From a virus (taxonomy: Duplodnaviria > Heunggongvirae > Uroviricota > Caudoviricetes): a stretch of DNA of 64,000 bases. The stretch is taken from the IMG/VR virus record IMGVR_UViG_2778261631_000002. One strand, written 5' to 3'. Under the pieces are notes generated by a model. That model was not told the DNA's origin and searched no databases. It was given only the letters and a program-made list of their open reading frames with translations. The position numbers and the translations under genes were made by a program. Of the stretch, positions 1 to 10,692 are shown in pieces (position 1 is the stretch's first letter; every line of letters begins with the position of its first letter).

Positions 1-155
1 TCGGCGTTCCCTGTCAGCGCCCCGGTGATCCCGCCGTTGAAAGTCTGGCGCGCACTCCATGTGTTAGCCGTGCTCAACAGGGGGATCTTTTCACCGCTGG
101 TACCGAGTTCTCTTAAACCAAGGTATTGGATTGAAAGGATGACGCCGGAAACTTC
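1..155 (-). CDS. partial open frame at window edge, possibly the 5' part of an unexpressed tail-fibre variable segment inside the invertible C segment
   Basis: Minus-strand frame is open from 155 to the window edge with no ATG, reading through the cix site into Gly-rich sequence (…NGGITGALTGN); position next to cin matches the Mu/P1 invertible-segment layout. Other frames are also open here, so the frame choice is uncertain. Confidence 0.3.
108..133. other. cix crossover site for Cin invertase
   Basis: TTCTCTTAAACCAAGGTATTGGATTG closely matches the hix/gix/cix 26-bp family (AAACCAAGGT core); overlaps the 3' end of cin. Confidence 0.55.
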
Positions 156-685
156 TTATAAAGCGTGGAAACAGCCACATCATAGATGATTGCAACCTGC
201 TTACGGGGGATGCCATTCTCCAGCAATCGCCGCATTTGCTGCCATGTTTCTTCTTGGTATTTAGGTCGACGCCCACCTATACGACTTTCTGCGCGAGCTG
301 CATCAAGTCCAGCGCGTGTACGTTCAACGATAAGCTCACGTTCCATTTCTGCCAGCGCCCCCATTACGTGAAAGAAAAAGCGCCCCATTGGTGTACTGGT
401 GTCGATGGAGTCAGTGAGACTCCGGAAGTTAATGCCTCTGTCACGCAGCTCTTCCACCAGCACAACTAAGTGACGCATGCTGCGCCCAAGACGGTCTAAC
501 TTCCATACGACCAGGGTATCACCTCTGGAAAGCATACGGAGTACCTTTTTTAACCCAGGGCGCTCAGCCTTTTTGCCGCTCGCCTTGTCCTCAAAAATTA
601 GCTCACATCCTGCGCTTTCAAGAGCGTTTCGTTGTAAAGCAGTGTTTTGTTCATTTGTTGATACGCGTACATAGCCTATTAGCAT
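113..685 (-). CDS. cin: Cin DNA invertase (serine recombinase, Gin/Hin family)
   Basis: 190-aa ORF starting MLIGYVRVSTNEQ with the catalytic-serine resolvase N-terminus and C-terminal HTH (…QVAIIYDVAVSTLYKK); near-colinear with Gin. Confidence 0.92.
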   Translation of the reverse strand: MLIGYVRVSTNEQNTALQRNALESAGCELIFEDKASGKKAERPGLKKVLRMLSRGDTLVVWKLDRLGRSMRHLVVLVEELRDRGINFRSLTDSIDTSTPMGRFFFHVMGALAEMERELIVERTRAGLDAARAESRIGGRRPKYQEETWQQMRRLLENGIPRKQVAIIYDVAVSTLYKKFPASSFQSNTLV

Positions 686-812
686 ATTTTCTGCTCACTA
701 TCGTTATTTATAGCAAGCTGCGGATTTTAATTAACAAAAACCTGTGTGTGTGGAAATCACAAAGTACATACCGTTTCCCAATGAGATTTAATTCACTATT
801 GAGGAAATAGTT

Positions 813-998
813 ATGTTTGATTTCACAATAATGTTCCTCTCCATCCTTGGCGGGGTGCATTCGTTTCTGAATGGGGTTCGTGAAAAACGTTACGAAGCGT
901 CATGCAGGCAATTGATGGCCGAGTGTATTGCTGCCGTACTTGCAGGCTTTATAGGCATGTATTTCGCGGAATATAAGGGTATGGATGAAAGTCTTTAG
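813..998 (+). CDS. small membrane protein, holin-like (first gene of the darA operon region)
   Basis: 61-aa ORF with strong SD (GAGGAA) and a hydrophobic helix; sits between cin and the holin gene. Confidence 0.45.
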   Translation: MFDFTIMFLSILGGVHSFLNGVREKRYEASCRQLMAECIAAVLAGFIGMYFAEYKGMDESL

Positions 999-1161
999 AA
1001 TTGCGTGACTATTATTTGCAGCATCAATAACAGGCTCATTCTTGAAAAGTCACAAAGGATTATCGATTCGTACCTCAATAGAAATGCCTCTTAAGCAACA
1101 AATGACCGGTTGAGAAGTTACTTTGCATACCATTACCTCCTGACAACGTAGGAGGGAACTT

Positions 1162-1491
1162 GTGCTTGACACACAGGAATTAGCTCCAGTTGCTATTGCG
1201 CTCCTGCTTTCAGTAATTGGTGGGATAGGCACGTTCCTGATGGATGTCCGAGACGGTCGCCAGTCTGGCAATTTGTTGGGATTGGTTACGGAGATCTTTG
1301 TTGCAGTGACAGCTGGCGCGGTGGCGTACCTATTGGGGCAACACGAGGGCTGGGAGTTATCAATTACGTACTTAATGGTAACGATAGCCAGCAATAACGG
1401 TCATGAGGTGATTTCAGGGATGAAACGAGTGAATATCGATAGCATTCTGAATGTTCTTACAAGTTTGGTGAAAAAGGGAGGCGGGAAATGA
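1162..1491 (+). CDS. lydA: holin
   Basis: 109-aa protein with three predicted TM segments; GTG start preceded by AGGAGGG; first lysis gene of the darA operon by position. Confidence 0.65.
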   Translation: MLDTQELAPVAIALLLSVIGGIGTFLMDVRDGRQSGNLLGLVTEIFVAVTAGAVAYLLGQHEGWELSITYLMVTIASNNGHEVISGMKRVNIDSILNVLTSLVKKGGGK

Positions 1492-8132: not shown

Positions 8133-9227
8133 TCACGAGAAGCTCTTTTCTGATGTCAGCCAACAGTGCTCGTGCAAATCTCTTGGTGGTTTTTCGACAA
8201 ATGCCTCTTCAGCCACATCCTGCCAGGGGATTTGTTTAGCCCATTCAGCTATAGCGTTATGGTTTGCCGAGAATAACGGTATTGTATAGGCCTTCAGCCA
8301 GTCTAATGTGCTGGAGTTGTGTTTTTGAGCGTGATGTTTCGCATGGTGTTTGGCGATCACGATCGTAGGCACTACCCATTTACTACCGTCAGTCATTGTG
8401 AAGTGCATATTACGGGGAACAGATGACTTTTCCATCAACTCCCGAATCCCGGGAAATTTCCCCAAGATCAATCGGCGATATTCATCGCTATTGCGCCCAC
8501 CAAACTCTTTGGCTTTGAATTCAAGATATGCTTCAGAAACGAGAGGTGAATCCTCTGTGTTTAGAGTTATCGCCGTGAAAAAACCAGCAGGATTGTTTTT
8601 ACTATGGGCCAACCGGTGATGCGAATCATAAAAGTACCCTTTCTCGCGTTCCGATGGTTTCGACAGCAACAGCAGGCGCGAGTCATAATTGGTTAAATTG
8701 CCAGTTATCACTGCATGAGCGCGATCGCTGATTTCCGCCGAGTTAATAACGATGAAAAGATCGTGCGGTCCAGTAAAACCAGCCAGAGACACTTCGTTAT
8801 TCAGACAATAGGTTATATAGACGCATCCCCATATTTCACTGATATGCACCAACCCTTTGTCAGGGTGCATTCTGAAATGATTGCCAAGAAAAGGGTGTTT
8901 TTGGGTAACTCGCTCCCAATAACGGAACATATAGTCAATTATTGTTTTTCGACTATCGTTAATAGCAGGAGAAACAACCACTGTACGGGAACACGAATAC
9001 AGTATTGTTTGCAGGATGCTAATCACTGCCACAATAGAGGTTTCCCCAATACCATGTGGTGTGGTGGCAGTGACTTTGGCTCCGGTGTTCTTTATCGCGT
9101 TAATAATTTTTGCTTGATGAGGTGTTAACTCAATATCAAGCAACTCTTTCGCTGCCAGTTCCCAATTGTCTTTATACTGTTCTATCAGTGCTAACCAGGC
9201 AGGTTCATTCTGTATACGATTAGTCAC
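8133..9227 (-). CDS. PacB-like protein: terminase large-subunit ATPase-domain paralog with degenerate Walker motifs and no nuclease domain
   Basis: 364-aa protein sharing [11 protein letters not shown] and flanking blocks with PacB (32101..33585), but Walker A is PHGIGET (PacB: SGHGTGKS) and the Walker B DE is replaced (FIVINSAE versus YIIDEASG). Confidence 0.6.
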   Translation of the reverse strand: MTNRIQNEPAWLALIEQYKDNWELAAKELLDIELTPHQAKIINAIKNTGAKVTATTPHGIGETSIVAVISILQTILYSCSRTVVVSPAINDSRKTIIDYMFRYWERVTQKHPFLGNHFRMHPDKGLVHISEIWGCVYITYCLNNEVSLAGFTGPHDLFIVINSAEISDRAHAVITGNLTNYDSRLLLLSKPSEREKGYFYDSHHRLAHSKNNPAGFFTAITLNTEDSPLVSEAYLEFKAKEFGGRNSDEYRRLILGKFPGIRELMEKSSVPRNMHFTMTDGSKWVVPTIVIAKHHAKHHAQKHNSSTLDWLKAYTIPLFSANHNAIAEWAKQIPWQDVAEEAFVEKPPRDLHEHCWLTSEKSFS

Positions 9228-10008
9228 TTTCCACCTCTTCCGTGGTGTTTTCTTGCAGTTCTGTTAATGCAGCACGACACAGGTTCCGGGCCTTGGCTAT
9301 AGCCACACTTTTGACTTCATCTGTCATCGTGCAGGTAATGTACTGATCGAGTTCTTCAGCGCGGATGATGCTTTTGCCAATCAGAAACTGTATTTGCCAG
9401 AGCAGATCGGCATCCATAATCAGAATTTCTGCCGGGCCTTCAGGGCCAGCCGGGAAGGAAACATAAGACTGTTTGCCAAGGCCGATAACTCGACAACTTG
9501 CTTCAAGAATTGCGCGCTTGAGGTCTGACTTTGTAACTGAAACAGGTTGATTTTCACCTGCGATTACGCCGTTGACATGGATGTGGAAGGGCATGTAGCT
9601 TGAAATTCGCTCTACTTTCCATACGCCAGCAAGCGATCCTTCATGCAGCACAATGGGGGTAACAGCGAGTTTCATCTCACCATATAACTGCTGGCAGATA
9701 GCTGGATTGCTGAATACATCCAAAGGTTCACACTCAAACAGCGGTGCAATCTGCATGAGGTCCATCATGGTCATACCTGGGGTACGAGCGGTAATGAATC
9801 TGCGCATGCCAGTATCCATTGTTCGCCAGATAGCTACACCATGCTTTTTGCTCACTTCTTCAGTAAAGCCAAGCTGGCACATGATGGTTTTTTCGATAGC
9901 CAGATCAGAGATAGAAACCTTTTCGCCAGGTACACCATCATTATTGATGGTCACTTCGACACTCTGGCCATTACGCAGGCGGTATTGAATTGCTTTAGTA
10001 TTTTCCAC
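9220..10008 (-). CDS. hypothetical protein (early operon with ssb)
   Basis: 262-aa ORF, start overlaps the upstream stop, same strand as ssb. Confidence 0.55.
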   Translation of the reverse strand: MENTKAIQYRLRNGQSVEVTINNDGVPGEKVSISDLAIEKTIMCQLGFTEEVSKKHGVAIWRTMDTGMRRFITARTPGMTMMDLMQIAPLFECEPLDVFSNPAICQQLYGEMKLAVTPIVLHEGSLAGVWKVERISSYMPFHIHVNGVIAGENQPVSVTKSDLKRAILEASCRVIGLGKQSYVSFPAGPEGPAEILIMDADLLWQIQFLIGKSIIRAEELDQYITCTMTDEVKSVAIAKARNLCRAALTELQENTTEEVESD

Positions 10009-10014
10009 GTTAAA

Positions 10015-10692
10015 TCACTCCACTACAAACCAGTCACATGCCAGTAAGTCGCATACAGAAGGCACCCACGGAACAACTACACCTTGTGCATTTTTTAAGG
10101 CGAAATAAGCACCATACGGAACGAGGTCGCCGGGGAAATATCCCTTAATGGCTTCCATTCGTGCCGGGTACTGTCCTTCAGGAACCAGCCAGCAGAATTG
10201 GTTTTCGCCGTTCCACCCGCGTCGAGCAACTTTCTTGCCATCCTTCAGCCACATCAGCGCGTCAGAAAAGTCGGCTGCTTCAAGGTCGATTTCTTCTTGT
10301 GTGGTAATGATGCCACTGGCAGCAATAGTTACGTCCCTGGCTGTAATGAATGTCACCCCATTGTGACCTTCAATACTGAGCGATACCCCATTTTCGAAGA
10401 AGTCGTTAGTCCGACTAAAGCCTTCTTCAAATGTTTTTTCTGGTGAATAGGACAGAGATCCGTCCTCATAAGCGACCAGATATCCGCCAATTTCTGGTCG
10501 GTGTTTTTGCAAAAACATTTTATCAACATGGACTTTTACCCCTTCTGGCTCAACGACTTCGATGTTGCAAAAAAGGACCACATCCATTAGGGCGATAATT
10601 TCGATATCTTTGATTTTTGAGGCGCGAACTGTTTTATGGCTTTTGTATTTTGGAAGTGCCGTCAAAAGCTCTTTCGTTGTCATGTTATTCAT
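10015..10692 (-). CDS. hypothetical protein with DUF2829-like C-terminal region
   Basis: Likely start at MNNMTTKELL (the listed ORF extends to 10812); C-terminal DALMWLKDGKKVARRGWNG resembles the phage DUF2829 pattern, from memory. Confidence 0.5.
   Translation of the reverse strand: MNNMTTKELLTALPKYKSHKTVRASKIKDIEIIALMDVVLFCNIEVVEPEGVKVHVDKMFLQKHRPEIGGYLVAYEDGSLSYSPEKTFEEGFSRTNDFFENGVSLSIEGHNGVTFITARDVTIAASGIITTQEEIDLEAADFSDALMWLKDGKKVARRGWNGENQFCWLVPEGQYPARMEAIKGYFPGDLVPYGAYFALKNAQGVVVPWVPSVCDLLACDWFVVE

What the first reader, a model, noticed from the sequence alone, without database searches (positions are those of the whole stretch)
1..160. Window begins inside the Cin-invertible segment; start-less tail-fibre frame reads across cix
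A hix/gix-like 26-bp cix site overlaps the cin stop. On the minus strand an ATG-less open frame runs from the cix region to the window edge with Gly-rich tail-fibre-like sequence, as expected for a variable S segment that is expressed only after inversion fuses it to the constant part. Orientation of the segment cannot be decided from this window.
Basis: partly seen in the sequence, partly recalled or inferred. Interest (0 to 1): 0.2.

Follow-up and report, generated by a model that had tools for sequence, protein, structure and literature searches.

The report
Edge of phage P1 invertible tail-fibre segment
The window starts 120 bases inside the well-known invertible tail-fibre switch of a P1-like phage-plasmid, so the start-less frame is an ordinary silent alternative tail-fibre tip and nothing new.

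Summary
The observation and the interpretation are both confirmed, and the feature is textbook P1 biology.

- **Origin.** Window 1-1200 is 98.6% identical to phage P1. The window is 99.99% identical over its first 38,862 bases to E. coli plasmid CP056895.1.
- **cix site.** A 26-bp cix site lies at 108-133 (TTCTCTTAAACC AA GGTATTGGATTG). The crossover falls at 120/121.
- **cin.** The gene is at 113-685 on the minus strand. Its stop codon lies inside the site.
- **Open frame.** The minus-strand frame 155..1 has no ATG. In the near-identical relative it continues 1,437 nt further left.
- **Simulated inversion.** Inverting the segment fuses this frame in phase to the constant part of gene S. The product is a 972-aa protein, 96% identical to P1 S'.
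- **Natural inversion.** A second assembly has identical flanks, and its 4,550-bp segment is exactly inverted at the cix cores. Inversion therefore happens in nature.
- **Orientation.** Window 1-131 is 100% identical to the other inverted-repeat arm. The orientation, and which variable part lies to the left, cannot be told from the window.

The one small departure from P1 is two substitutions that make the cin-side half-site cixR-like. They remove P1's cin stop, so Cin is 190 aa and ends inside the invertible DNA. This variant is rare (4 plasmid records found).

The parts
1..120 (-). cin-proximal end of the invertible C segment. It holds the first 40 codons (LGLRELGTSGEK...TGNA) of a start-less variable part of tail-fibre gene S. 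This could be either Sv' or Sv, because the stretch lies inside the inverted repeat.
108..133 (.). cixL, the 26-bp Cin recombination site: inner half 108-119, core AA 120-121, outer half 122-133. The outer half is cixR-like at 10 of 12 positions.
120..121 (.). Core dinucleotide, which is the crossover point and the left boundary of the C segment. It lies within the Leu codon CTT (122-120) of the S frame.
   Evidence: The P1 annotation places the crossover at the equivalent position. The natural inversion breakpoints coincide with it.
113..685 (-). cin, a serine DNA invertase of 190 aa. It differs from P1 Cin (186 aa) by G134S, K157N and a 4-residue read-through (NTLV) that ends in the inner half-site.
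596..667 (.). Recombinational enhancer of C inversion, located inside the 5' part of cin. It is 100% identical to the enhancer annotated in P1.
121..155 (-). The part of the open frame that lies outside the segment. It is open only incidentally, overlaps the cin 3' end in another frame, and is not part of any S protein.
1..131 (.). The portion of the left arm of the 199-nt inverted repeat that falls within the window. In CP056895.1 the arms are at L002 3560-3758 and 7933-8131.

Best explanation
Window 1-120 is the cin-proximal end of the P1-type invertible C segment of a P1-like phage-plasmid. The proposed mechanism has four steps.

1. Cin (window 113-685, minus strand) binds the two 26-bp cix sites, which lie in inverted orientation about 4.55 kb apart.
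2. Helped by the enhancer inside its own gene (596-667), Cin exchanges strands at the central AA/TT dinucleotide (120/121).
3. This flips the segment, which carries two alternative promoter-less, start-less 3' parts of tail-fibre gene S. Each part is followed by its own chaperone gene (U or U').
4. Whichever part faces the constant 5' part Sc is translated as the C-terminal receptor-binding half of the fibre. Sc lies outside the window and has the late promoter and the ATG. The other part lies silent next to cin.

**Shown here:** the anatomy, the frame continuity after inversion, near-identity to P1, and natural occurrence of both orientations with breakpoints at the cix cores.

**Inferred from P1 and Mu work:** dependence on the enhancer, catalysis by Ser9, and the change in host range.
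For: - **Identity to P1.** Window 1-1200 is 98.6% identical to P1. It aligns to annotated cin, cixL, the C-segment boundary and Sv'.
- **Published sites.** The published cixL and cixR sequences match.
- **Cin.** It has Resolvase and HTH_7 domains, the N-terminal VRVSTNEQ motif and an enhancer identical to P1's.
- **Site count.** The near-identical plasmid has exactly two cix sites in 10 kb, in inverted orientation. About 0.08 are expected by chance.
- **Leftward extension.** It shows 530 open codons, then U'.
- **Simulated inversion.** It gives a 972-aa S', 96% identical to P1 S', and leaves Cin unchanged.
- **Natural inversion.** Contig AAWIEU010000014.1 (L009) has flanks 100% identical over 10,000 nt on the cin side and 3,570 nt on the Sc side. 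Its 4,550-bp segment is 99.98% identical when inverted and 34% identical when not.
- **Literature.** The C-segment mechanism and the P1(S') host range are described in bioRxiv 10.1101/2022.07.24.501295.
Against: - Nothing contradicts the explanation.
- The true left flank of this window's own source was not available. The extension rests on a relative with 4 mismatches in 38.9 kb plus an IS insertion.
- The cin-side half-site and the Cin C-terminus differ slightly from P1. Their effect on activity is untested.
- No inversion assay is possible with these tools.
Confidence: 0.95

Rival explanations
1. The segment is a frozen remnant. The altered cix half-site and the 4-residue Cin extension (plus G134S and K157N) have inactivated the switch, so the frame next to cin is permanently silent.
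For: Two substitutions in the outer half-site and three protein differences from P1 Cin.
Against: - Elements encoding exactly this 190-aa Cin are found in both orientations, with breakpoints at the cix cores. L009 carries the variant site; in L010, L011 and L015 the orientation was read from gene order only, without inspecting the site.
- The new half-site is identical to the functional P1 cixR half-site at 10 of 12 positions.
- The extension lies after the HTH_7 domain, which ends at residue 181.
Confidence: 0.03
2. The minus-strand frame is an independent gene with its own internal start, as automatic annotation suggests, and is not a fusion-dependent gene part.
For: Gene callers annotate a 'phage tail protein' there: 431 aa in CP056895.1, and 504 aa or 617 aa in other assemblies.
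Against: - The gene callers disagree on the start.
- There is no ATG for 283 codons and only a TTG at window 77.
- No promoter-like site was found on that strand between cin and the frame.
- The frame is exactly in phase with Sc after inversion and then matches full-length P1 S'.
- The first 64 or so codons duplicate part of the expressed S gene as an inverted repeat.
Confidence: 0.02
3. It is a multi-site shufflon-like system of the p15B Min type, with several invertible sub-segments, and not a simple two-site switch.
For: P1-like plasmids such as p15B carry six mix sites (Table 3). Parts of this region are annotated as similar to p15B.
Against: Only two cix-like sites occur in the 10 kb spanning R to lydA, even with 3 mismatches allowed. 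The two natural arrangements differ by a single inversion of the whole 4,550-bp segment.
Confidence: 0.01

Closest known systems
Phage P1 C segment with Cin invertase, cixL/cixR and S/S'-U/U' tail-fibre genes (NC_005856)
   Same: - The gene order is the same: R, Sc, cixR, Sv, U, U', Sv', cixL, cin, lydC.
- Window 1-1200 is 98.6% identical in DNA.
- The inner half-sites, core and enhancer are identical.
- S' has the same length (972 aa) and is 96% identical.
   Different: - The cin-side outer half-site is GGTATTGGATTG (P1: GGTTTAGGATTG). This removes P1's cin stop, giving a 190-aa Cin that ends inside the segment.
- The other variable part, Sv, is not P1's. S is 1085 aa and diverges from P1 S after residue 518.
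- The inverted repeat is therefore 199 nt, compared with about 0.65 kb in P1.
Phage Mu G segment with Gin invertase and gix sites
   Same: It has the same architecture and mechanism: a constant Sc part, alternative Sv/U and Sv'/U' parts, and a Din-family invertase next to the segment. The P1 annotation records 92-94% DNA identity between parts of the P1 C segment and the Mu G segment. Functional overlap is described.
   Different: The gix core is GA and its half-sites differ. I did not compare Gin's sequence with this Cin or align Mu directly. The element here is a P1-type phage-plasmid, not a transposable phage.
Salmonella Hin/hix flagellar phase switch
   Same: It uses a serine invertase of the same family, 26-bp sites with an AA core, and an enhancer inside the recombinase gene (established knowledge).
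   Different: In the Hin system the recombinase gene lies inside the invertible segment, and the switch moves a promoter, not a coding 3' end.
Min multiple-inversion system of plasmid p15B
   Same: It sits on a P1-related plasmid backbone, uses a Din-family invertase, and exchanges tail-fibre 3' ends.
   Different: p15B has six mix sites and many permutations. Only two sites and a single invertible unit are found here.

Membership tests
Din/Hin-family serine invertase switch (P1 Cin/cix) | The recombinase has an N-terminal resolvase catalytic domain with the active-site serine and a C-terminal HTH domain. | tested here: met
   PF00239 scores E = 6e-50 and PF02796 scores E = 2e-18. Ser9 lies in MLIGYVRVSTNEQ, and residues 1-186 differ from P1 Cin at only 2 positions.
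Din/Hin-family serine invertase switch (P1 Cin/cix) | A 26-bp recombination site made of two 12-bp half-sites around a 2-bp core, matching the family consensus. | tested here: met
   Window 108-133. The inner half and core are identical to published cixL and cixR. The pattern gives a unique hit where 0.03 are expected.
Din/Hin-family serine invertase switch (P1 Cin/cix) | A second site in inverted orientation with an identical core. | tested here: met
   The second site is not in the window. It is present in the 99.99%-identical plasmid at L002 3558-3583, in inverted orientation, identical at 24 of 26 positions.
Din/Hin-family serine invertase switch (P1 Cin/cix) | A recombinational enhancer in cis. 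| tested here: met
   Window 596-667 is 100% identical to the enhancer annotated in P1 cin. Fis binding itself cannot be tested with these tools.
Din/Hin-family serine invertase switch (P1 Cin/cix) | The segment actually inverts at the site cores. | tested here: met
   L009 compared with CP056895.1 has identical flanks. Its 4,550-bp segment is 99.98% identical only when inverted, and the breakpoints fall at the cores.
P1/Mu-type split tail-fibre gene S (Sc + alternative Sv/Sv') | The silent variable part lacks its own start and comes into phase with Sc after inversion. | tested here: met
   There is no ATG for 283 codons. Simulated inversion gives one open 972-aa frame.
P1/Mu-type split tail-fibre gene S (Sc + alternative Sv/Sv') | Homology of the variable part to a known tail-fibre tip. 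| tested here: met
   The variable part is 93.8% identical to P1 Sv' over 519 aa and carries a gp37_C domain.
P1/Mu-type split tail-fibre gene S (Sc + alternative Sv/Sv') | A cognate tail-fibre assembly chaperone lies directly downstream of each variable part. | tested here: met
   U (175 aa) and U' (177 aa) both match Caudo_TAP and are convergently arranged.
P1/Mu-type split tail-fibre gene S (Sc + alternative Sv/Sv') | Host range changes with orientation. | not testable with these tools
   This is known for P1 S and S'. The Sv partner here is not P1's and its receptor is unknown.

The most novel reading that the evidence does not exclude
The rare cixL variant has a cixR-type outer half-site, so the two sites are identical at 24 of 26 positions. 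cin loses its P1 stop and terminates inside the DNA that it inverts. The variant may be a product of gene conversion spreading the inverted repeat across the crossover point. It might change the inversion rate or bias, or the properties of the Cin C-terminus, compared with P1.
Probability: 0.12. Interest if true: 0.25.

Novelty: already known. Interest (0 to 1): 0.07.

Why it matters
This matters little beyond correct annotation. It is the classic P1 Cin/C-segment host-range switch.

There are three practical consequences.
- The 'phage tail protein' ORFs that pipelines call next to cin (431, 504 or 617 aa) are start-less gene parts with arbitrary starts. They should be annotated as Sv or Sv'.
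- The orientation in any assembly is one snapshot of a switching population.
- Short-read contigs tend to break at this inverted repeat.

The minor cixL/Cin variant is a curiosity. It could be used to ask how half-site symmetry affects Cin inversion.

Tried and rejected
- **Idealised palindromic site.** I searched for TTATCNNAAACCNNGGTTTNNGATAA with up to 3 mismatches and found nothing. Real cix half-sites deviate by 4 positions. I replaced it with a pattern derived from the published hix/gix/cix sites.
- **IMG/VR scan.** An exact scan of viral contigs for the variant cixL plus cin flank returned no contig.
- **Assumed source record.** I first took CP056895.1 to be the source of the window. 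I rejected that because it has 4 mismatches and a 1,229-bp IS3-family insertion that the window lacks. It is used only as a near-identical proxy for the left flank.
- **Independent start at TTG 77-75.** I considered and rejected this. There is no ATG, no promoter-like site was found, and the phase with Sc is exact.
- **p15B-type multi-site system.** I considered and rejected this because only two sites are present.
- **Not run.** Identity to an experimentally characterised system made them unnecessary.

Full report
**1. What is at the coordinates**

Window 1-160 reads ...GGTACCGAG TTCTCTTAAACC AA GGTATTGGATTG AAAGGATGACGCC.... The 26-bp block at 108-133 has the layout of a Din-family recombination site: two 12-bp half-sites around an AA core.

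- Its inner half and core are identical to both published P1 sites. These are cixL (TTCTCTTAAACC AA GGTTTAGGATTG) and cixR (TTCTCTTAAACC AA GGTATTGGATAA), from PMC3241671 Table 3.
- A degenerate pattern built from the hix/gix/cix sites hits the 64-kb window once, at 108-131 with 0 mismatches. About 0.03 hits are expected even with 2 mismatches allowed.
- The ORF 113-685 on the minus strand encodes a 190-aa protein with Resolvase (E = 6e-50) and HTH_7 (E = 2e-18) domains. Its TAA stop at 113-115 lies inside the site.
- A different minus-strand frame is open from 155 to the window edge. It has no ATG and reads ...IQYLGLRELGTSGEKIPLLSTANTWSARQTFNGGITGALTGNA.

**2. What the window is**

- Window 1-1200 is 98.6% identical to phage P1.
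- In the annotated P1 record the aligned positions are Sv', the left C-segment boundary, cixL, cin, the enhancer inside cin, and lydC. The crossover is annotated at the equivalent of window 120/121.
- The closest record is E. coli plasmid pRHBSTW-00046_2 (CP056895.1; IncY; wastewater, UK).
- It is not the exact source. It differs at 4 positions in 38,862 nt and carries a 1,229-bp IS3-family insertion that the window lacks. I used it only as a near-identical proxy for the missing left flank.

**3.

- In CP056895.1 the frame continues to a stop 1,437 nt left of window position 1. That makes 530 open codons, with the first ATG at codon 283.
- It is followed by a Caudo_TAP chaperone gene (U'), then a convergent U gene, then a 1085-aa S gene preceded by R.
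- A second cix site lies in S at L002 3558-3583, in inverted orientation. It is identical to the cin-side site at 24 of 26 positions.
- These are the only two such sites in the 10 kb. About 0.08 are expected by chance, and 0 of 200 shuffles gave two.
- Simulating inversion of the 4,550 bp between the two cores joins the frame in phase to Sc. The product is a 972-aa protein, the same length as P1 S' and 96% identical to it throughout. Cin is unchanged.
- The variable part alone is 93.8% identical to P1 Sv'.

**4. Does it really invert?**

I looked up contigs that encode exactly this 190-aa Cin. They show both arrangements.

- L010, L011 and L015 have cin next to the Sv'-type part, with the 1085-aa S intact.
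- L009 has cin next to the other variable part, with the 972-aa S' intact.
- L009 is 100% identical to the window over 10,000 nt on the cin side. It is 100% identical to CP056895.1 over 3,570 nt on the Sc side.
- Its 4,550-bp segment is 99.98% identical to that of CP056895.1 only when inverted. It is 34% identical otherwise. The breakpoints fall at the cix cores.

This is direct natural evidence for site-specific inversion of this element.

**5. Orientation**

- The inverted repeat here is 199 nt at 98% identity.
- Window 1-131 is 100% identical to the other arm. The first arm-specific differences lie just left of position 1.
- No other part of the 8 kb to the left (R, Sc and the rest of the C segment, including U and U') recurs in the window.
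- Window 1-131 is also identical in the inverted natural variant.

So neither the orientation nor the identity of the adjacent variable part (519-codon Sv' or 632-codon Sv) can be decided from the window.

**6. Mechanism**

- **Shown here:** the anatomy, the phase continuity, identity of the enhancer (596-667) to P1's, the Cin domains and Ser9, and both orientations in nature.
- **Inferred from established P1 and Mu work (and the references cited there):** Cin, helped by the enhancer, exchanges strands at the 2-bp core. The variable part facing Sc is expressed from the late promoter upstream of R, together with its chaperone. The other part is silent. The switch changes host range.
- **Supporting scan:** no promoter-like site was found on the minus strand between cin and the frame, and no terminator-like site either.

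**7. Difference from P1**

- Substitutions at window 125 and 127 turn the outer half-site GGTTTAGGATTG into GGTATTGGATTG. That is cixR-like at 10 of 12 positions.
- This destroys P1's cin stop, so Cin gains the residues NTLV and stops at 113-115, inside the inner half-site. Its last codons are therefore encoded across the crossover.
- Because the inner half-sites are inverted repeats, Cin is the same in both orientations.
- The variant is also in NZ_CP099360 (sequence read), NZ_CP058059 (100% match over 131 nt) and CP042641. That makes 4 of about 178 plasmid records that cover the query.
- P7, D6 and NZ_CP026938 have the P1-type site.
- Gene conversion between the repeat arms is a plausible origin, but this is inference only.

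**8. Rivals**

- A frozen remnant is contradicted.
- An independent gene is contradicted, and by the inconsistent starts chosen by gene callers.
- A Min-type multi-site system is contradicted.

**9. Verdict**

The feature is the well-characterised P1 C-segment boundary, so it is already known and of low interest.

Noticed in passing
window 113-133: cixL variant. Substitutions at 125 and 127 make the outer half-site cixR-like and remove P1's cin stop. Cin is 190 aa and terminates inside the invertible segment. I confirmed it in only 4 plasmid records (CP056895, NZ_CP099360, NZ_CP058059, CP042641). P1, P7, D6 and NZ_CP026938 have the P1-type site.
   Followed up: yes
window 813-1094 (stop at 996-998): lydC, a putative holin, carries a nonsense change relative to P1 (CAG to TAG, Q62*). 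The ORF is 61 aa, against 93 aa in P1. Some Logan contigs call the same 61-aa product.
   Followed up: partly
window 22824-26495, minus strand: A LuxR/GerE-type HTH gene (113 aa) and a 1074-aa autotransporter (AC_1 + Autotransporter beta-domain) lie between ulx/lxc and mat. P1 carries the EcoP1I res-mod genes in this slot, by my recollection of the P1 map. No phage record in the collection matches this insert; only the flanks match (15% coverage).
   Followed up: partly
window 38862/38863: The closest record, CP056895.1, has a 1,229-bp IS3-family insertion here that the window lacks. It also differs from the window at 2659, 12435, 22081 and 37291. The window therefore comes from a sibling element and not from that record.
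   Followed up: partly
L002 2210-5467 (CP056895.1), left of the window: The S gene as assembled in this lineage is 1085 aa and diverges from P1 S after residue 518. That is a different receptor-binding tip, paired with a P1-like S'. As a result the inverted repeat is only 199 nt, compared with about 0.65 kb in P1.
   Followed up: partly
L013, L014, L016, L017 (Logan contigs): Several short-read contigs end exactly 11 nt past the cin stop, at about window 102, inside the cix/inverted-repeat region. This is consistent with assembly breaks at the repeat or with mixed orientations in the sample.
   Followed up: no
window 8133-10692, minus strand: This is a three-gene block: 364 aa and 262 aa products with no Pfam match, and a 225-aa product annotated DUF2829 / Tad2-like (PF11195). 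Other elements with the same Cin carry an HD-domain gene there instead (L010, L013). It looks like a variable accessory slot, possibly for anti-defence genes.
   Followed up: no
L004 17787-18131 (NZ_CP099360.1, E. fergusonii): A P1-like plasmid with the same cixL variant carries an ompC porin gene downstream of the ddrB region, and a 1294-aa S gene. This is further cargo and tail-fibre diversity on the same backbone.
   Followed up: no
L002 6563-7858; L010 10609-12123; L009 10609-12462: Annotation pipelines give the start-less silent variable part arbitrary internal starts (431, 504 or 617 aa 'phage tail protein'). This is a systematic mis-annotation of Sv/Sv'.
   Followed up: partly
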